Shown: positions 1-5,423 of the stretch, in pieces
How the letters are laid out: each line of letters starts with the position of its first letter
How positions within the stretch are numbered: the first letter of the stretch is position 1
NCBI GenBank assembly: GCA_016933055.1
Contig: JAFGBS010000035.1
Span: forward strand, 1-5,423
Source of the DNA: Promethearchaeota archaeon
GTDB taxonomy: Archaea > Asgardarchaeota > Lokiarchaeia > Sigyniarchaeales > Promethearchaeaceae
Direction of reading: 5' to 3'
DNA: 5,423 bases
Made by a program: the position numbers and the translations under genes
The notes under the pieces: generated by a model
What the model saw: only the letters and a program-made list of their open reading frames with translations
What the model was told of the DNA's origin: nothing
The model's database searches: none

Positions 1-187
1 CTAATGATGAAGCACACATGAAGAGCATTTTTACATCTCACTTTTATTCTTTCTAAGTCACAAAAATTGCATATAATAAAAACAAGAATTTGATACACTG
101 GGGTAATATAAATCCTAAAAAGAAGTTTTAATCATAATATCAATAGTATTATTCATAATTATTCATTTTCAACCGAAGGTGAGAGAG

Positions 188-1039
188 ATGTTATATCGCA
201 AACAAAGATTGTTGTTAGGACTCATAAATTTCCTTAACGAACAAGAACGGTTGGATAGGCTAACCTTGATGAAATCGATGTTTCTGATTTCCCAAGAAAT
301 ACCTATTAAGTTTGCGAAATATCATTTTCATCCCTATAAATTTGGTCCATATTCAGCAAAGCTATATCAAGATCTTGCGTATATGGAAAAAAATAGTCTA
401 ATAACGACTCCAGATCCTAAAACTGTAAACTTAACAAATTCAGGTCTGAAGGAAATGGAATTTCCTAAAGAGGTCAAGAACTACGTTATGAATGTACTGA
501 GGACCCAAAATACAGTAGAAGAGCTTATTGATTTTATATATTGTAAATATCCCGAATTTTCTTGCATATCCGAGCGAAAAAATATACCCATTCCTCACAA
601 AAGAGATGATAAACCTGGTTTTTTCTTAATAGGATATGAAGGTAGAGATATTGATGAATTTTTGAACGTATTAATTCAAAATAACATAGAAATATTAGTG
701 GATATTCGCGCAAATCCATATTCTATGAAATATAATTTCATTGGTAGCCGTCTTAAAAATTTCCTTGAAAAAGTCGGAATACGATACATATCTATCCCTG
801 AATTAGGGATTGAGTCCGAAAAAAGGAAGAATCTTGATTTAATATCTGATTATCTTGTATTATTTAAACAATACAGGAAAAATTTGGAGAATAAAACAGA
901 ATTTCTCAATAAAGTCATTAGATTAGGAAAAGATCATAGAATTGCGCTCATGTGCTTTGAAAAAGATCCTAATTTTTGTCACAGAGGGCAAGTTGGGGAA
1001 GTTTTACAGGAAAAACACCATCAAGTGGTATCAATCTAA
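188..1039 (+). CDS. Winged-helix (YwgA/SocA-Panacea/DarG C-terminal-like) + DUF488 fusion protein, 283 aa
   Basis: N-terminal ~120 aa: RLLLGL..LTLMKSMFL..YHFHPYKFGPYSAKLYQDL..LI..VNLTNSG matches the 'KL.FL..YGPYS..L..DL' wHTH pattern. C-terminal: IGYEGRDIDEF, LVDIRANPYS, GIRYISIPELG and LMCFEKDPNFCHR (C256, E258, C264, H265, R266) are DUF488 hallmarks. Start moved from GTG179 to ATG188 because a GGTGA RBS-like motif (178-182) lies 5 nt upstream. Confidence 0.85.
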   Translation: MLYRKQRLLLGLINFLNEQERLDRLTLMKSMFLISQEIPIKFAKYHFHPYKFGPYSAKLYQDLAYMEKNSLITTPDPKTVNLTNSGLKEMEFPKEVKNYVMNVLRTQNTVEELIDFIYCKYPEFSCISERKNIPIPHKRDDKPGFFLIGYEGRDIDEFLNVLIQNNIEILVDIRANPYSMKYNFIGSRLKNFLEKVGIRYISIPELGIESEKRKNLDLISDYLVLFKQYRKNLENKTEFLNKVIRLGKDHRIALMCFEKDPNFCHRGQVGEVLQEKHHQVVSI

Positions 1040-1845
1040 TGCCGATTAAGAGGATTTATCTATTAGTTAAAGCATATCCAGAAAAAAGTAAAAAGCATGG
1101 GTCCTCCATTTGTACGGCTGGATTAACTACTGAAGGAGAATGGATTCGAGTTTATCCTATCGATTTAAGTTACTATTCCATCAATAAAGACATGTTAAAG
1201 AAATGGAACTTAATTGAAGCTGATGTTCGGGAAGCAAGCGAGAAATTAAAGAGAAAGGAAAGTCACAAAATAATTGAACACTCAATAAAGCTCGTTGATG
1301 ACTCACTTACGAAAATAAGTACATCTAAGCTAAAAAAACAAAAAATATGGGATGATCGCAACCAAATCATACTTCCTCATTTAAATAAATCGATTAAAGA
1401 ACTTGATGAACTTAAATCTAAAGATCATACATCCTTGGGAATTATAAAGCCCAAAAAGTATCAATTCAAGATACGAAAGAAAATTGATGAAATAGAAGTA
1501 ATCAAGTCTAATTTTATTCAAAAAACACTAGATGGATATAAAGTAAATATCCCGGACCAAATTGAGAAAACTTTCTCCTATAAATTCCGCTGTGATGATC
1601 CCCTTTGTAAAGGACACGACATGATCTGTGAGGATTGGGAACTTTTTGAAGCATTTCGAAGTTGGAAGAAGAAATACACAAGTCCGACTGAATTGGAAAA
1701 AAAGTTAAGGGAAAAATTTGATACTAATATGAAAAAGAGAGATCTATATTTCATTGTAGGAACAACATCCCTATTTGGAACATGGGTAATTATAGGTTTA
1801 TACTATCCTCCAAAAAGTAAAAATAAGTTATTATTAGAATTTTAA
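1039..1845 (+). CDS. Conserved uncharacterised DUF488-associated protein, 268 aa (dual-OB-like N-terminus, Cys/His cluster)
   Basis: ATG1039 overlaps the upstream stop (TAATG, 1037-1041), so the track's start at 976 is likely spurious. Motifs: LVKAYP..S.K.G..ICTAG..GEWIRVYP, C185-x4-C190-x2-H193-x3-C197-EDWE, LYFIVGT..WVIIGLYYPP. The CTAG..GEWIR.P segment resembles the 'C.AG..G.WIRP' motif I recall from DUF488-linked dual-OB proteins. Function unknown. Confidence 0.75.
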   Translation: MPIKRIYLLVKAYPEKSKKHGSSICTAGLTTEGEWIRVYPIDLSYYSINKDMLKKWNLIEADVREASEKLKRKESHKIIEHSIKLVDDSLTKISTSKLKKQKIWDDRNQIILPHLNKSIKELDELKSKDHTSLGIIKPKKYQFKIRKKIDEIEVIKSNFIQKTLDGYKVNIPDQIEKTFSYKFRCDDPLCKGHDMICEDWELFEAFRSWKKKYTSPTELEKKLREKFDTNMKKRDLYFIVGTTSLFGTWVIIGLYYPPKSKNKLLLEF

Positions 1846-1981
1846 GTGTCTGTAATCAACTTTTAACAATAGATCCCACAACACGAATTTAGACTAGATA
1901 TAATCCAGTGTAAGTATTCTATTCTTGCTATTCTATTGGGAAAAATAAATAAATTTCTCTTAGACCTCCAAATTTCTCTTC

Positions 1982-2449
1982 TTATTTCTTTGAGATGTCA
2001 GACAAGGTTTTCACAACAAAAATCGGATTCTCCTTTGAAATGACATCTTTCCAGTGTTCCTCGATATTTTCTTTCAAATTATAATCCATCGTTATAAAAA
2101 TTTCACTGGATTTAACAGCGGAGGCTAAAATTATACAATCTATATAATCTTGATGTGTTTTTCGGAATTCTTGTGCCAGAATTAAAATTTCGGGATGATA
2201 AATAGGAATTTTTGCAATTTTGTTAAAATTATGAATAAAACTAATACCATCCAGTAAATCTTCCATTTCTAATATTCCTTGGACAATATATTTCGATCCT
2301 TTTGCAGAAAGTTCGAAATATACGAGTTCTGAGCATAATATATCGTAGTTAGTATTCCTAAGCAAATTTCCTATGTCTTTTTTGGATATGTTTTTTACAT
2401 CCACTCGTATAAATGGAAAAAAAAACGAACTATCGAGAAAAACCTTCAT
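1982..2449 (-). CDS. vapC: PIN-domain ribonuclease toxin (VapC family), 155 aa
   Basis: VFLDSS (D6), FE (E46), DYIDCIILASA (D104) and FITMD (D122) supply the four PIN acidic residues. 4-bp ATGA overlap with the upstream AbrB-type gene. Confidence 0.9.
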   Translation of the reverse strand: MKVFLDSSFFFPFIRVDVKNISKKDIGNLLRNTNYDILCSELVYFELSAKGSKYIVQGILEMEDLLDGISFIHNFNKIAKIPIYHPEILILAQEFRKTHQDYIDCIILASAVKSSEIFITMDYNLKENIEEHWKDVISKENPIFVVKTLSDISKK

Positions 2450-2682
2450 CTATTAGTAATTTCCTCCGATAATTCCTTTCGGTCCCCTTTAATTTCATCA
2501 AATGAAATTTCAATTTTAGACGATTTTGATAGGATTTCTTCTAATTCAATATATTTTTCCACTATTAGTCTACCATTTAATACCTGATAAATGATCTTTT
2601 GCCCTTTCTTTAGTCCCATTTGTTCTCTTATCGATTTTGGGGGAAACAATTCACCTTTCGATCCAACTATTCCAGTAATCAT
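2446..2682 (-). CDS. vapB: AbrB/MazE/SpoVT-family antitoxin (VapB-type), 78 aa
   Basis: VGSKGELFPPKSIREQMGLKKGQKI..V.NGRLIVEK fits the swapped-hairpin AbrB motif; acidic C-terminal tail; directly upstream of and overlapping the PIN gene. Confidence 0.9.
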   Translation of the reverse strand: MITGIVGSKGELFPPKSIREQMGLKKGQKIIYQVLNGRLIVEKYIELEEILSKSSKIEISFDEIKGDRKELSEEITNR

Positions 2683-2718
2683 ATCTACCAGAAGAAATTA
2701 CGTTTTTTCTGGTATATA
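2682..2718. promoter_or_regulatory. Inverted repeat, putative VapBC operator
   Basis: TACCAGAAGAAA (2686-2697) / TTTTTTCTGGTA (2703-2714): 11 of 12 positions pair, outer 8 bp perfect; it extends with one mismatch to 2682/2718. It abuts the vapB start codon and overlaps the TATA-like box. Confidence 0.7.
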
Positions 2719-2720
2719 AA
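2713..2720 (-). promoter_or_regulatory. Archaeal-type TATA box for vapBC (TTTATATA on minus strand)
   Basis: Consensus-like TTTATATA 31-38 nt upstream of the vapB ATG; no obvious RBS, consistent with a short or absent leader. No clear BRE. Confidence 0.5.
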
Positions 2721-2780
2721 CCTATGGAGTGAAAAAAAATGTTGTCTTAAAATGCAAATTTCTCTGGATACTATCGTGAA

Positions 2781-2788
2781 TTATATAA
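2781..2788 (+). promoter_or_regulatory. Archaeal-type TATA box (TTATATAA) for the 2816-3441 operon
   Basis: Preceded by purine-rich GTGAA and 28-35 nt upstream of ATG2816. A homologous box (TTTTATAA, 3788-3795) is retained in the duplicated copy. Confidence 0.55.
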
Positions 2789-2815
2789 TCTTGGAATGCA
2801 TATCTAATTATGAGT

Positions 2816-3055
2816 ATGACACAAGTTTCTATCGATAAAGATCTTGCCATAGATTTAATCGAAACTAAATTGAGAGAGATTAAGTCTCAAATTGCAGAAA
2901 TTTTGAAGAAATGGGATCAAGATTCAGTTACTACTATGATTCGACTATCAAGAGAGGGTAAACTCCCAGAATCAGAAATGGATGCAATAAGCCTTACTAA
3001 TTTGAACGATAAGATGGTCGAATTAGAAAGTCTTGCACAAGATCTGGAGGAATAA
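2816..3055 (+). CDS. Small helical protein, putative antitoxin of the downstream DUF6516/TumE-like toxin, 79 aa (81 aa if ATG2810 is used)
   Basis: Upstream gene of a coupled two-gene unit. KKWDQDSVTTMIRLSREGKLPESEMD resembles the small 'KY.M...EF......G.L.E' proteins I associate with DUF6516 genes (weak, from memory). Only the second ATG (2816) is conserved in the paralogous fragment at 3822. Confidence 0.6.
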   Translation: MTQVSIDKDLAIDLIETKLREIKSQIAEILKKWDQDSVTTMIRLSREGKLPESEMDAISLTNLNDKMVELESLAQDLEE

Positions 3056-3441
3056 CTATTTTTGCAACTGAAAAGATTGAAATCGCAAGAGAAATCATAT
3101 TATCCTCGCTTTCAAACGAAATTCTTGGTCATATTTATCTTAAAGAACAAAACCAATTAAGATTTGATTTCAGAAATGGTAATCGGTTATATCTAATCTA
3201 TGACAATTTCGATGAATATGCTTATCAGCTCTGTTTTTCATTTGATCCCATGGATCGTATTAGATTTGATGCGATGGATAAAAATTGGAGTGTGAAAAAC
3301 TCTCCACATCACTTTCATCCTCGATTTGAATTAGAAGGATATTTCAGTCCTATGACAGGAGATCCTAAAGTAGATATCCCAAAATTAGTTGAATTCATTA
3401 AATCACATATTCTAGAAGATTCTAAACACCGATTCCATTAA
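3052..3441 (+). CDS. DUF6516/TumE-like toxin, ~129 aa, lacking a canonical start codon (possibly silenced)
   Basis: The frame of the track's 63-aa ORF is open back to 3013 (ITIFATEKIEIAREII..LYLIYDNFDEYAYQLCFSFDPMDRIRFDAMDKNWSVKNSPHHFHP). The Y.YQ..RIRFD..PHH.H pattern is DUF6516-like. The only plausible starts near the upstream stop are ATA3052 (ATAA overlap) or ATT3058 (7 nt after GGAGG at 3046-3050). Confidence 0.65.
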   Translation: MTIFATEKIEIAREIILSSLSNEILGHIYLKEQNQLRFDFRNGNRLYLIYDNFDEYAYQLCFSFDPMDRIRFDAMDKNWSVKNSPHHFHPRFELEGYFSPMTGDPKVDIPKLVEFIKSHILEDSKHRFH

Positions 3442-3547
3442 TGAACTAATGAAGGACGAATATCAATACATTTTTTGGTCGACAAATGGTCAACCTAGAA
3501 GTCTAAACCTGATACACTGCATTATGAGAGAAGAAGTCAGTCTTTCG

Positions 3548-3624
3548 GGTATACCGTAAAGATTTTACAATTTTCTCGCGGTACACCGTAAACTTTGTAG
3601 CAAATCCTTCGGTTATATCGCGAA
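3548..3624. repeat. Two to three degenerate ~32-bp-period direct repeats with a palindromic core
   Basis: GGTATACCGTAAA (3548-3560) and GGTACACCGTAAA (3580-3592) match at 12/13 nt; weaker third copy GGTTATATCGCGAA (3611-3624). Confidence 0.45.
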
Positions 3625-3787
3625 CCTTTAAATATAGATTATGTTAAAAATATTTGAATTGTACATTCGAGCAGAAATTGATTTACTCTACACTTTTATG
3701 TATGCGCATCATGAATTTCTTATCAATATTCTTCCTCTATTCACCAGATTTTACTTTTAAATGCAGTTTTCCATTTAGTATAGCGAG

Positions 3788-3923
3788 TTTTATAATTTTG
3801 AATGATTATCTAATTATAAACATGCCAAAAGTTTCTATCGATAAACATCTTGCCATAGATTTAATCGATACAAAATTGAGAGAGATTAAATCATTTGGGC
3901 ACTTTCCAGTAAGGAACATCTAA
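3788..3923 (+). pseudogene. 5' remnant (promoter + first 24 codons) of a paralog of the 2816-3055 gene
   Basis: 3822-3893 matches 2816-2887 at 65/72 nt (MPKVSIDKHLAIDLIDTKLREIKS vs MTQVSIDKDLAIDLIETKLREIKS). Upstream 3788-3821 aligns to 2781-2815. Similarity stops abruptly at 3894 and the frame ends at 3923 (33 aa). Confidence 0.85.
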
Positions 3924-3947
3924 AAATCCTTTCAAACATAACAGAAT

Positions 3948-3953
3948 AGGAGG
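3948..3953 (+). promoter_or_regulatory. Shine-Dalgarno site AGGAGG
   Basis: Located 7 nt before ATG3961. Confidence 0.75.
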
Positions 3954-3960
3954 AAAAATT

Positions 3961-4293
3961 ATGAGTGATGTAATATCGACTCGTTTAAAGAAAGAGGAAA
4001 TTGATGAATTAAATGAAATCAGTGCAAAAGAACATTTAGATCGGTCTGCATTGATGCGAAAATTCCTGCTTCAACAAATTAAGGAGTATAGTTTAAGAAA
4101 AGTTTCGGAGAAGTATCGTAAAGGAATAATTAGTCTAGCTGAAGCCGCAACCCTGGTGAAAGTAACGATTTACGATATGATGGAGTACTGTAAAAGAGAG
4201 CAAATTCGCCCTATTGAACCAGATTCATCCGAACTAGCAAAAGATAGAACAAATGCTGAAGATATCTTTCGCAAATTGAAGGAGGAGAAATAA
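3961..4293 (+). CDS. UPF0175-family protein (RHH-like N-terminus + HTH), putative orphan antitoxin, 110 aa
   Basis: VISTRL..EE..EL..I...EHLDRSALMRKFL (ribbon-helix-helix-like) followed by YRKGIISLAEAATLVKVTIYDMMEY (UPF0175 'Y..G.ISL..AA..A......F' pattern). Strong RBS. Confidence 0.85.
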   Translation: MSDVISTRLKKEEIDELNEISAKEHLDRSALMRKFLLQQIKEYSLRKVSEKYRKGIISLAEAATLVKVTIYDMMEYCKREQIRPIEPDSSELAKDRTNAEDIFRKLKEEK

Positions 4294-4300
4294 AATTAAG

Positions 4301-4360
4301 AAAGAGATACGAATGCCCCAAATAGCGGAATCTTATCGGAATGGTACTCTATCACTGCAA
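4301..4360 (+). repeat. 60-bp direct repeat, copy 1 (UPF0175 gene fragment)
   Basis: 55/60 nt identical to 5168-5227, with a perfect 36-nt core (4321-4356 = 5188-5223). Translates KEIRMPQIAESYRNGTLSLQ vs KEMRMTRIAESYRNGTLSLQ. Confidence 0.9.
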
Positions 4361-4469
4361 TTTTCCATCTTTCCGGAACTCGCACTCTTTTATATTAATT
4401 TGCTTTTTACTCATAGTCATTTAAATGCCGAATATTTATTATTCCAAGATGCATAATTCCTTTAGAGAG

Positions 4470-4772
4470 ATGCAATCACCAGTATTAACTCCTAAAAATA
4501 TCGAATTGCTCAAAGAAAAGGCAAAAGAGTATAAAATGAAGCTCCTAGCCATTTTTGGGTCCTATGCTCGTGAAGAACAAAAAGAAGAAAGCGATTTAGA
4601 TATTTTGGTCGATTTTGAAGAATCGCCTAGTTTACTCTCATTTATTCGTATGGAAAATGAGTTATCTGACCTTCTGGGAGTTAAAGTCGATTTAGTTACA
4701 AAAAATTCTCTTCATCCAATTTTACGGAAAACCGTTCTAAAAGAAATGAGGATTGTGTATGGTGAAGTCTGA
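4470..4772 (+). CDS. mntA: Minimal nucleotidyltransferase (MNT) antitoxin, ~100 aa
   Basis: AIFGSYAREEQKEESDLDILVDF carries G-S-x10-D-x-D; also LSDLLGVKVDLVT. The start is uncertain: ATG4470 gives a typical family length, ATG4425 is the alternative. Confidence 0.9.
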   Translation: MQSPVLTPKNIELLKEKAKEYKMKLLAIFGSYAREEQKEESDLDILVDFEESPSLLSFIRMENELSDLLGVKVDLVTKNSLHPILRKTVLKEMRIVYGEV

Positions 4773-5118
4773 CCAATTCTACCTATATCATATACAATGA
4801 TCTCTGGAGAAAATTGATTCCTACATTAAGGATGTAGATTATGATAAATTTGTCAATACATCTCTAATACATGATGCAGTCTTAAGGCAGTTGGGTATCA
4901 TAGGAGAAGCATCTAAGCAGTTATCCTCAGATTTTAAGAACGAACATTCTCGAATTTTATGGAAAGAAATTGCGGGAATGCGGGATAAAATAATTCACCA
5001 ATATTTTGGAGTGGATTTCGAATTGGTATGGAAAACACTGAAAGAAGATCTTCCCATACTTCAGGAGTTTGTAAAAGAAATCAATCCAAAAATGGAAGAT
5101 GAGGATTATCATGAGTAA
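4759..5118 (+). pseudogene. hepT: HEPN (DUF86/HepT) RNase toxin with in-frame TGA at codon 14
   Basis: ATG4759 overlaps the mntA end and reads MVKSDQFYLYHIQ*SLEKIDSYIKDVDYDKFVNTSLIHDAVLRQLGIIGEASKQL..WKEIAGMRDKIIHQYFGVD; TGA at 4798-4800. The R-x4-H-x-Y motif is intact. The track's TTG4891 ORF is only the C-terminal part. Confidence 0.85.
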
Positions 5119-5368
5119 AAAATACTTTGCTCAATTAAAGAAAGAAGAAATGAACTCTGAAAAAGTAAAAGAAATGCGAATGACCCGAATAGCGGAATCT
5201 TATCGGAATGGTACTCTATCACTACAAGAAGCAGCAACAGCCGCAAAAGTATCAATATATGAAATGATGGAATTTACTGAAAAGCATCAAATTTATCCAA
5301 AGGAACTTTCTGATCAAGAGATGGAAGAGCATTTTAAGTATGCGAAAAAAATACTAAGAAAAGATTGA
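5111..5368 (+). CDS. Second UPF0175-family protein, internally shortened, 85 aa
   Basis: GAGGA (5101-5105) lies 5 nt before ATG5111, which overlaps the hepT stop. YRNGTLSLQEAATAAKVSIYEMMEF motif; 22/45 identical to the HTH region of 3961-4293; shares LKKEE at residues 9-13 but is 21 aa shorter between LKKEE and the HTH. Confidence 0.75.
   Translation: MSKKYFAQLKKEEMNSEKVKEMRMTRIAESYRNGTLSLQEAATAAKVSIYEMMEFTEKHQIYPKELSDQEMEEHFKYAKKILRKD
5168..5227 (+). repeat. 60-bp direct repeat, copy 2 (within the second UPF0175 gene)
   Basis: Matches 4301-4360 at 55/60 nt; the copies are 867 bp apart. Confidence 0.9.
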
Positions 5369-5423
5369 TGGAGAATCCATCAGAGATAGATCCAATAAGT
5401 TTAACTAACTTACATGGGAAAAA
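5368..5423 (+). pseudogene. Partial ORF (runs off window) resembling the C-terminal part of the 2816-3055 protein
   Basis: TGATG overlap with the upstream stop; reads MENPSEIDPISLTNLHGK. SEIDPISLTNLHGK vs SEMDAISLTNLNDK is 10/14 identical (5380-5421 vs 2972-3013, 29/42 nt, differences mostly at third positions). Confidence 0.6.

What the first reader, a model, noticed from the sequence alone, without database searches (positions are those of the whole stretch)
188..1845. Candidate uncharacterised two-gene defence/DNA-processing system: wHTH-DUF488 fusion + dual-OB-like Cys/His partner
Seen: two intact ORFs coupled by TAATG at the edge of a dense TA island whose other genes are largely decaying; the DUF488 C-x-E-x5-C-H-R motif is complete. 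Established: DUF488 is poorly characterised, and genes embedded in TA/defence islands are enriched for antiviral functions. Inference: a Cys-dependent DUF488 enzyme and a putative ssDNA-binding partner form a nucleic-acid sensing/processing module acting in anti-virus defence, abortive infection or repair of modified/abasic DNA. I know of no experimental characterisation of this pair, but cannot confirm that without a search.
Basis: partly seen in the sequence, partly recalled or inferred. Interest (0 to 1): 0.8.

Follow-up and report, generated by a model that had tools for sequence, protein, structure and literature searches.

The report
Archaeal DUF488 plus dual-OB candidate defence pair
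Two intact, overlapping genes (a winged-helix/DUF488 enzyme and a tandem-OB DNA-binding partner) form a strictly co-conserved mobile module that is already catalogued as the untested phage-defence candidate PDC-M19, so it is real and interesting but not new.

Summary
ORF1 (188-1039, 283 aa) and ORF2 (1039-1845, 268 aa) are intact and joined by TAATG. The motif C256-x-E-x5-C264-H-R is present and invariant in relatives.

ORF1 has two parts. Its N-terminal winged-helix domain has the C-terminal, toxin-sequestering domain of DarG as its best structural match (Z 11.6). Its C-terminal DUF488 domain has a Cys-phosphatase-like fold. ORF2 is a tandem OB-fold protein related to Pfam DuOB.

A DUF488 gene lies next to the ORF2 homologue in 80 of 80 fetched loci. 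This holds across gene orders, orientations and swapped N-terminal DNA-binding domains (winged helix, ParB, AbrB or none). No third gene is conserved.

The pair is patchy (19 of 301 genomes of the phylum). It sits inside or beside type I restriction-modification operons and MNT/HepT clusters in some loci. It also occurs in Gordonia prophage immunity regions and on plasmids.

However, it is already named. Both proteins match PADLOC PDC-M19A and PDC-M19B (1e-74, 3e-49), a candidate from Payne et al. 2024. I found no experimental test of it.

My best mechanism is inferred, not shown. The OB partner binds ssDNA or DNA ends, and the DUF488 cysteine enzyme processes a phosphorylated terminus or adduct. 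A DarTG-like toxin-antitoxin logic is the main rival.

The parts
178..182 (+). Shine-Dalgarno-like GGTGA, 5 nt upstream of the ORF1 ATG
   Evidence: Read directly from the sequence. An upstream in-frame GTG at 179 is less likely as the start, because homologues begin at the ATG position.
188..1039 (+). ORF1, 283 aa: PDC-M19A-type protein, winged-helix (DarG-C-terminal-like) domain fused to DUF488
   Evidence: PADLOC PDLC04505 at 1.3e-74. PHROG 14939 at 8.5e-42. AF2 model pLDDT 93.5.
188..598 (+). ORF1 N-terminal domain (residues 1-137): winged helix plus helical extension, like the DarG C-terminal domain
   Evidence: VIA-align top hit is 7yk3_D (M. tuberculosis DarTG complex), Z 11.6, rmsd 3.2 over 131 residues. 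Foldseek E 3.5e-4. Weak sequence matches to DarG models: NCBIfam 1.2e-4 and PADLOC 1.3e-6. No Pfam hit, Panacea included, at E up to 10.
608..1036 (+). ORF1 DUF488 domain (residues 141-283), Cys-phosphatase/rhodanese-like Rossmannoid fold
   Evidence: PF04343 at 3.1e-26. Structural matches: laforin DSP Z 8.7, Sulfolobus PTP Z 8.3, tetrapyrrole-methylase N-domains Z about 9. Invariant GYEG, DxR, SxK, PELG and R213.
953..985 (+). Putative active-site loop C256-F-E-KDPNF-C264-H265-R266
   Evidence: Invariant in 27 homologues. C256 ends strand 251-256 and R266 lies at the start of helix 265-275 in the model. That is the strand-loop-helix position of the PTP CX5R loop; the equivalence is inferred.
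1037..1041 (+). TAATG stop/start overlap coupling ORF1 and ORF2
   Evidence: The same 1-nt overlap, or a 4-nt overlap, is seen in most A-then-B loci.
1039..1845 (+). ORF2, 268 aa: PDC-M19B-type tandem-OB (DuOB-like) protein
   Evidence: PADLOC PDLC04508 at 2.6e-49. PHROG 25907 at 3.6e-39. AF2 pLDDT 91.4. Fold matches.
1039..1314 (+). ORF2 N-terminal SSB-type OB fold (residues 1-92) carrying conserved S17, C25, R37, R72, E74, S75
   Evidence: VIA Z 9.2 to Rim1 SSB, 9.1 to PriB, 8.4 to archaeal RPA. Each of these residues is kept in at least 93% of 133 diverse relatives.
1429..1812 (+). ORF2 C-terminal OB fold with helical insert (residues about 131-258), carrying D199-W200-E201
   Evidence: Secondary structure of the model. 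Whole-length matches to tandem-OB RPA and HIN-200. D199, W200 and E201 are kept in 94-97% of relatives.
1591..1617 (+). Cys/His cluster C185-x4-C190-x2-H193, a putative structural Zn site, possibly completed by C25
Evidence: Conserved at 86%, 76% and 89%, and C25 at 98%, in 133 relatives. Metal binding was not tested.

Best explanation
This is an archaeal (Promethearchaeota-type) member of the two-gene module that PADLOC lists as phage-defence candidate PDC-M19. It is a self-contained, horizontally mobile conflict module.

ORF2 is a tandem-OB protein that binds single-stranded DNA or DNA ends; this follows from its fold. ORF1 brings a DUF488 enzyme of the rhodanese/Cys-phosphatase fold. Its invariant C256 ... 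C264-H-R266 loop would act on a phosphate-bearing group at a nucleic-acid terminus or adduct presented by ORF2; this is inferred.

The N-terminal DarG-C-terminal-like winged-helix domain of ORF1 is an exchangeable module. It either tethers or regulates the pair on DNA, or docks onto ORF2; this is inferred.

The biological role is most likely protection of the host or mobile element against invading DNA. This rests on genomic context and is not shown.
For: Family assignment: PDC-M19A at 1.3e-74 and PDC-M19B at 2.6e-49. PDC-M19 was derived from genes embedded in BREX, DISARM or type I RM.

Obligate linkage: a DUF488 gene adjoins the ORF2 homologue in 79 of 80 loci by phmmer, and in the 80th by clustering. 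Orientation varies: 65 loci are A then B, 10 are B then A, and 4 are convergent. The N-terminal domain of A is swapped between winged helix, ParB_N plus HTH_ParB, AbrB/MazE, or none. No third gene is conserved.

Conflict or mobile context:
- The pair lies inside or next to type I RM operons, for example L074 with HsdR-A-B...HsdS-HsdM. Ten of 80 loci have type I RM genes and 12 of 80 have MNT/HepT.
- Distribution is patchy: 19 of 301 genomes of the phylum, and 7 of 90 high-quality ones.
- In temperate Gordonia phages, the ORF2 homologue overlaps the gene annotated as immunity repressor, beside the integrase.
- It is present on conjugative plasmids.

Folds: tandem OB like RPA, SSB and HIN-200. 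DuOB is fused to DEAD/ResIII helicases in Atlas clusters. The DUF488 domain matches PTP and DSP phosphatases, and its catalytic-looking residues are invariant.
Against: No phenotype, binding or enzymatic activity has been shown for any member; I found no paper testing PDC-M19. Only about one locus in eight sits next to recognisable RM genes, so defence context is suggestive rather than strong.

The DUF488 loop is C-x9-R, not the canonical PTP C-x5-R, so the chemistry may differ. No DUF488 structure is in the PDB by sequence.

The Sulfolobus plasmid pSOG2 carries an ORF2 homologue with no DUF488 gene on the plasmid, so the linkage is not absolute.

The window is a 5.4-kb contig of a binned genome, so its own wider context is unknown.
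Confidence: 0.5

Rival explanations
1. A DarTG-like toxin-antitoxin or abortive-infection module. ORF2 is an ssDNA-directed toxin, acting either by blocking replication through binding or through a chemistry not yet recognised at its conserved R37/R72/E74/S75/D199/E201 residues. ORF1 is a two-pronged antitoxin. Its DarG-C-terminal-like domain would sequester ORF2, as the DarG C-terminal domain sequesters DarT, and DUF488 would enzymatically reverse the damage.
For: The ORF1 N-domain has the DarG C-terminal domain as best structural match (Z 11.6), with weak DarG HMM hits.

The DarG C-terminal domain sequesters DarT (PMC7003065). It is described as an ssDNA mimic in the title of Deep et al. 2023.

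The layout is antitoxin-like: the gene with the DNA-binding domain comes first and overlaps the second gene. AbrB/MazE and HTH variants of the N-domain exist. The window is a TA island.

ORF2-type genes almost never occur without DUF488, whereas DUF488 genes occur alone: second copies in L003 and L005, and hits in 7 of 14 control genomes.
Against: ORF2 has no recognisable enzymatic fold, only OB folds.

Many homologous pairs have a stand-alone DUF488 without the DarG-like domain, and these are often convergent rather than co-transcribed.

pSOG2 carries ORF2 without DUF488.

Toxicity has never been tested.
Confidence: 0.25
2. An accessory DNA-repair module. The OB protein coats ssDNA gaps or ends, and DUF488 cleans blocked termini or adducts (for example 3'-phosphate or abasic-site derived ends). 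It would serve genome maintenance rather than conflict.
For: The pairing of an ssDNA-binding fold with a phosphatase-like fold fits this. DUF488 is widespread in cellular genomes, in 7 of 14 control genomes. The Pfam-named relatives of ORF2 include helicase fusions.
Against: Distribution is very patchy: 19 of 301 genomes, and not found in the one other genome of the genus that was sampled (76% complete). Flanks are hypervariable, with no repair genes recurring. The pair is carried by prophages, plasmids and RM operons. Repair genes are usually vertically inherited.
Confidence: 0.12
3. A function serving the mobile element itself. Examples are anti-restriction or anti-defence, or control of replication, partition or lysogeny, given the ParB fusions and the position next to a phage repressor.
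For: ParB_N plus HTH_ParB plus DUF488 partners occur in 12 of 80 loci. In Gordonia phages the ORF2 homologue overlaps the gene annotated as immunity repressor. The pair is present on conjugative plasmids and in two PHROG families.
Against: Most copies are chromosomal and lack mobile-element hallmarks in the flanks. Embedding within host type I RM operons fits defence better. Prophage genes next to repressors are often defence cargo; this last point rests on general knowledge and was not tested here.
Confidence: 0.1

Closest known systems
PADLOC phage-defence candidate PDC-M19 (Payne et al. 2024, bioRxiv 10.1101/2024.01.29.577857; PADLOC-DB v2)
   Same: Both proteins match its HMMs over their full length (A: 3-278 of 283 aa at 1.3e-74; B: 1-262 of 268 aa at 2.6e-49). 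It is an adjacent two-gene cassette, and relatives are embedded in type I RM, as in the source study.
   Different: The candidate was defined on RefSeq genomes (174 instances listed). This copy belongs to a mostly archaeal clade. It sits in a TA cluster on a short contig, so embedding cannot be seen in the window. PDC-M19 itself is untested.
Pfam DuOB (PF22557, dual OB-containing domain) and DUF488 (PF04343) with its N3a and N3i subclades. To my memory these come from Burroughs and Aravind 2023, NAR Genom Bioinform lqad029; that paper was not held, so this attribution is unverified.
   Same: ORF1 is a clear DUF488 member. ORF2 has the dual-OB architecture, and structure-based searches return DuOB-named clusters: Foldseek E 3e-9 to 5e-6 and Atlas TM 0.69.
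   Different: ORF2 itself gets no PF22557 hit even at E up to 10. Only 2 of 35 close homologues do, at 1.8e-5, so it is a sister family rather than a member by sequence. The DUF488-N3a match is marginal and partial (27.3 bits against a cut-off of 27).
DarTG toxin-antitoxin / anti-phage system
   Same: The ORF1 N-domain resembles the DarG C-terminal, toxin-sequestering domain (Z 11.6). In both, a two-domain protein couples that domain to an enzyme domain, and the partner acts on or binds ssDNA. Both lie in a TA or defence context.
   Different: There is no ADP-ribosyltransferase: ORF2 is made of OB folds. There is no macrodomain: DUF488 stands in its place. The domain order is reversed. Many homologous pairs lack the DarG-like domain.
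Tandem-OB DNA binders: RPA/SSB and HIN-200 innate-immune DNA sensors (AIM2, IFI16)
   Same: Two OB folds lie in one chain. A Cys/His cluster in the second OB recalls the zinc element of RPA70 DBD-C; that comparison rests on memory.
   Different: TM-scores are low (0.2-0.44). There is no sequence similarity. The conserved acidic D-W-E motif is not a feature of those families.
Cys-based PTP and dual-specificity phosphatases / rhodanese-phosphatase superfamily
   Same: A Rossmannoid fold with a cysteine at the end of a strand and an arginine at the start of the next helix.
   Different: The loop is C-x9-R, with a second Cys-His pair, instead of C-x5-R. The substrate is unknown. Z scores of 8-9 are only moderate.

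Membership tests
PADLOC PDC-M19 | Protein matched by a PDC-M19A model | tested here: met
   PDLC04505 at 1.3e-74, 249 bits, residues 3-278.
PADLOC PDC-M19 | Protein matched by a PDC-M19B model | tested here: met
   PDLC04508 at 2.6e-49 and PDLC04507 at 2e-43, full length.
PADLOC PDC-M19 | The two genes lie adjacent in one cassette | tested here: met
   TAATG overlap at 1037-1041.
PADLOC PDC-M19 | Anti-phage activity | not testable with these tools
   The candidate is listed as untested by its authors. I found no later test.
Pfam DUF488 (PF04343) | HMM score above the gathering threshold | tested here: met
   92.8 bits against 22.2, profile positions 2-121 of 121.
Pfam DUF488-N3a (PF22751) | HMM score above the gathering threshold over the whole domain | tested here: inconclusive
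   27.3 bits against a cut-off of 27, covering only profile positions 65-117 of 118.
Pfam DuOB (PF22557) | Sequence match to the family HMM | tested here: not met
   No hit for ORF2 at E up to 10. Two of 35 homologues hit at 1.8e-5.
Pfam DuOB (PF22557) | Dual OB-fold architecture resembling family members | tested here: met
   AlphaFold DB clusters named 'Dual OB-containing domain' match at E 3e-9 to 5e-6, TM 0.52-0.58. Atlas DuOB cluster TM 0.69/0.75.
DarTG | DarT ADP-ribosyltransferase toxin | tested here: not met
   ORF2 has no ART domain in Pfam, and its model is two OB folds.
DarTG | DarG macrodomain | tested here: not met
   The enzymatic domain of ORF1 is DUF488. The NCBIfam DarG score is 21 bits against a cut-off of 250.
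DarTG | DarG C-terminal (toxin-binding) domain | tested here: met
   7yk3_D at Z 11.6, rmsd 3.2 over 131 residues, top of 48,161 chains. DarG HMM positions 164-270 match at 1.3e-6.
Type II toxin-antitoxin module | One product is toxic and is neutralised by the other | not testable with these tools
   Only the layout (a protein with a DNA-binding domain first, genes overlapping) is compatible.

The most novel reading that the evidence does not exclude
The pair is a DarTG-like system built from unrelated parts. A tandem-OB protein damages or blocks ssDNA of replicating invaders. It is held in check by a bipartite partner: a DarG-C-terminal-like, ssDNA-mimicking domain plugs the OB groove, and a Cys-phosphatase-fold DUF488 domain erases the lesion. 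This would be a new reversible DNA-directed chemistry, and it would be prominent in Asgard and methanogenic archaea.
Probability: 0.2. Interest if true: 0.8.

Novelty: new member of a known kind. Interest (0 to 1): 0.45.

Why it matters
DUF488 is a large family with no solved structure found by sequence and, as far as my searches reached, no demonstrated activity. Its constant pairing with a dual-OB protein is one of the clearest contextual handles on what it does.

The family is large: 2,619 clusters at 50% identity. It spans Archaea, Bacteria, phages and plasmids. It is present in the cultured Asgard archaeon Promethearchaeum syntrophicum MK-D1 (L002).

Showing that PDC-M19 defends cells, and how, would add a system with probably new chemistry to the archaeal immune repertoire, which is poorly known (PMC12988326). 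The Gordonia prophage and bacterial plasmid versions give tractable hosts for the test.

For this scan, the finding is a correct rediscovery of a catalogued candidate, not a new system.

Tried and rejected
Complex prediction: ORF1 plus ORF2 plus Zn returned 'no answer', because a control with an unrelated chain scored higher. It counts neither for nor against binding.

Fused or longer forms: searches for ORF2 and for the DUF488 domain found nothing. The tool says this is weak evidence.

Solved structures by sequence: no PDB relative for ORF1, and none meaningful for the ORF2 profile.

Pfam on ORF1 residues 1-151, on whole ORF2 and on the two halves of ORF2 at E up to 10 gave nothing useful. 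No Panacea/DUF4065 hit appeared.

Literature:
- 'PDC-M19' appears in no main text.
- 'DuOB' gave only unrelated hits.
- Burroughs and Aravind 2023 (lqad029) could not be opened by DOI, by a guessed PMC id or by a PubMed id. What I say about it rests on memory and on the Pfam family names.

Other dead ends:
- Rfam found no RNA family in the window.
- Wider context in the window's own genome is impossible, because the contig is the window.
I could not measure whether C25 completes the C185/C190/H193 site, or whether the conserved polar residues cluster.

Rejected ideas:
- C197 as a zinc ligand: it is kept in only 21% of relatives.
- ORF2 as a staphylococcal-nuclease-like OB enzyme: no such fold match appeared among the top hits.
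Full report
**1. What is in the sequence**

The window is 5,423 bases at about 31% GC. It is an entire contig (C12) of a 3.76-Mb, 36-contig, 91%-complete genome.

ORF1 starts at ATG 188, preceded by GGTGA at 178-182, and ends with TAA at 1037-1039. ORF2 starts at ATG 1039 and ends at 1845. The two share one base, giving TAATG. Both frames are intact and align end to end with homologues. No Rfam family is present.

The rest of the contig is a TA cluster:
- a PIN/AbrB pair
- a TumE-like frame with no ATG
- two UPF0175 genes
- an MNT gene followed by a HepT gene with an in-frame stop at 4798-4800

**2. ORF1**

Pfam DUF488 covers residues 155-273 at 3.1e-26. It is invariant in 27 homologues, as are GYEG (149-152), D172-x-R174, S179-x-K181, PELG (204-207) and R213.

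The AF2 model has pLDDT 93.5 and splits into two domains.

Residues 2-136 have chain D of 7YK3 as top structural match. This is the DarG C-terminal domain in the M. tuberculosis DarT-DarG complex. The match is Z 11.6, rmsd 3.2 Å over 131 residues, against 48,161 chains, with Foldseek E 3.5e-4. Weak sequence matches to DarG models over the same DarG region agree (NCBIfam 1.2e-4, PADLOC 1.3e-6). The first 95 residues also match ordinary winged-helix regulators at Z about 7.

That DarG domain sequesters the ssDNA-modifying toxin DarT (PMC7003065). It is described as an ssDNA mimic in the title of the 7YK3 paper.

Residues 141-283 match Cys-dependent phosphatases: laforin DSP at Z 8.7 and a Sulfolobus PTP at Z 8.3. 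They also match tetrapyrrole-methylase N-domains at Z about 9. In the model, C256 ends a strand (251-256) and R266 opens the next helix (265-275). This is the place of the PTP Cys-x5-Arg loop, though here the loop is Cys-x9-Arg. The equivalence is my inference.

**3. ORF2**

ORF2 has no Pfam, NCBIfam or PDB sequence match. The AF2 model has pLDDT 91.4 and shows two OB folds.

- Residues 1-90 match SSB, PriB and archaeal RPA at Z 8.4-9.2.
- The whole chain matches tandem-OB RPA and HIN-200 domains at Foldseek E 6e-5 to 1e-3.
- AlphaFold DB and ESM Atlas return clusters named 'Dual OB-containing domain' (PF22557 DuOB) at E 3e-9 and TM up to 0.69-0.75. These include DEAD/ResIII helicase-DuOB fusions.

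By sequence, only 2 of 35 close homologues reach PF22557, at 1.8e-5. ORF2 is therefore a sister family of Pfam DuOB.

I aligned 133 diverse relatives at 26-43% identity. The best-kept residues are P14, S17, C25, G28, R37, P40, R72, E74, S75, D199, W200, E201, G241 and P257, all at 93% or more. C185, C190 and H193 are kept at 86%, 76% and 89%. C197 is kept in only 21%.

I could not measure distances, because coordinates are not exposed to scripts.

**4. Is it a system?**

A pattern scan of one genome per species found 164 genomes with an ORF2 relative, and 80 loci were fetched. Nearly all are archaeal: Promethearchaeota (including the cultured P. syntrophicum MK-D1), Thermoplasmata, Methanothrix and Methanomicrobiales. 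A few are bacterial.

In 79 of 80 loci, phmmer finds a DUF488 gene touching the ORF2 homologue. In the 80th (L070) clustering finds it.

The linkage survives rearrangement:
- 65 loci are A then B
- 10 are B then A
- 4 are convergent

It also survives swapping of the N-terminal domain of A:
- 55 loci have the winged-helix type
- 12 have about 354-aa proteins; the three I scanned (L005, L008, L071) are ParB_N + HTH_ParB + DUF488
- 10 have short proteins of about 200 aa; the one I scanned (L017) carries AbrB/MazE + DUF488

Stand-alone DUF488, often convergent, occurs in a Gordonia phage, a Pseudomonas plasmid and two metagenomic contigs.

No third gene recurs. The most frequent neighbours reach only 6 loci. 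The constant core is therefore DUF488 plus the dual-OB protein, and the DNA-binding head is exchangeable.

**5. Context**

The commonest neighbours are type I RM subunits and MNT/HepT. Ten of 80 loci carry type I RM genes, almost all within 5 kb, and 12 of 80 carry MNT/HepT.

In L074 the order is HsdR-A-B...HsdS-HsdM. In L065 it is A-B-HsdS-x-HsdM. In L027 it is HsdS...HsdM-A-B.

The gene is patchy. It is found in 19 of 301 genomes sampled from the phylum, and in 7 of 90 high-quality ones. It was not found in the one other genome of the genus sampled, which is 76% complete. The window's own genome has one copy of each gene.

Homologues occur in seven records of temperate Gordonia phages. There the ORF2 homologue (gene 43) overlaps the gene annotated as immunity repressor (gene 44). 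A stand-alone DUF488 (gene 42) converges on it, and all lie beside the integrase.

Homologues also occur on 23 plasmids, 11 of them typed as conjugative.

One exception stands out. Sulfolobus plasmid pSOG2 has the ORF2 homologue but no DUF488 anywhere on the plasmid.

**6. Already known?**

Yes, as a candidate. PADLOC-DB models PDC-M19A and PDC-M19B match ORF1 and ORF2 at 1.3e-74 and 2.6e-49. PDC systems were defined by Payne et al. from cassettes embedded in BREX, DISARM or type I RM and were released as 145 untested candidates. PDC-M19 is cassette CAS_00089, with 174 instances in the count column.

Both proteins also fall in PHROGs of unknown function.

Pfam carries DuOB and two DUF488 subclade families. 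I believe these stem from Burroughs and Aravind 2023, which predicted DNA-end processing conflict systems. I could not open that paper, so this attribution is from memory.

I found no experimental work on this pair. The cold-seep study that tested eight candidates did not include M19.

**7. Mechanism**

Shown by tools: the folds, the invariant residues, the obligate adjacency, and the mobile, RM-associated context.

Inferred: ORF2 binds ssDNA or DNA ends. DUF488 uses C256, helped by C264-H265 and R266, on a phosphate-bearing terminus or adduct. The winged-helix head either binds DNA or docks on ORF2.

I rate the defence-type DNA-processing reading at about 0.5. The DarTG-like toxin-antitoxin reading is about 0.25. 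An accessory repair module is about 0.12. A function for the mobile element itself is about 0.1.

The complex prediction gave no verdict and is not used as evidence.

**8. Verdict**

The claim of an unnamed system fails, because it is PDC-M19.

- the mostly archaeal clade of the family
- the DarG-C-terminal-like identity of the N-domain
- the catalogue of swapped heads and orientations
- the prophage immunity-region copies
- a revised view of the Cys/His site

Interest is moderate (0.45). The finding is a new member of a known, untested kind.

Noticed in passing
window 4768-5118 (+): The HepT-like gene after the intact MNT gene (4425-4772) has an in-frame stop at 4798-4800. Only the part from TTG 4891 (profile positions 36-120) remains open, so the toxin half of this MNT/HepT pair looks broken.
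   Followed up: partly
window 3046-3441 (+): A TumE-like frame is open for 131 codons but has no ATG near its start. It begins right at the stop of the upstream 81-aa gene (Pfam TumE at 0.0035 on the 63-aa ATG-started part).
   Followed up: partly
window 1-5423: The window is the whole of contig C12 of a binned 36-contig genome. Its assignment to that genome rests on binning, and the region may be a hard-to-assemble variable island or mobile element.
   Followed up: no
window 3961-4293, 4425-4772, 5099-5368: The two UPF0175 proteins match a PADLOC PDC-S70 model (1.8e-8, 8.5e-6). The MNT protein matches PDC-S09 models (down to 1e-27) and PDC-M05A weakly. PADLOC would therefore flag several candidates on this one contig.
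   Followed up: no
L067:1788-5821: Three tandem paralogues of the dual-OB gene (E 4e-4, 6e-26, 3e-60) are followed by one 360-aa DUF488 gene of the long class (ParB-type by analogy with L005, L008 and L071; L067 itself was not scanned) in a Promethearchaeia genome.
   Followed up: no
L083:4018-6265 (Gordonia phage Eviarto genes 44-42): The dual-OB homologue (gene 43) overlaps the stop of the gene annotated 'immunity repressor' (gene 44; only a weak HTH_31 match, no DUF488). The stand-alone DUF488 gene 42 converges on it, next to the tyrosine integrase.
   Followed up: partly
L084:4995-6355 (Sulfolobus islandicus plasmid pSOG2): A dual-OB homologue occurs with no DUF488 on the plasmid. The overlapping downstream 168-aa gene has no Pfam match. 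By eye it carries a D...E-x-K pattern that could be a PD-(D/E)xK nuclease, a possible alternative partner.
   Followed up: partly
L003:14938-15666 and L005:6140-7165: Second DUF488 genes lie a few kb from the pair without an adjacent dual-OB gene. DUF488 can therefore stand alone, while the dual-OB gene almost never does.
   Followed up: no
ORF1 residues 26-125: The same N-terminal domain matches the C-terminal end (432-542 of 554) of a PADLOC type I specificity-subunit model at 6.6e-6. This winged-helix module is therefore also fused to some HsdS proteins.
   Followed up: no
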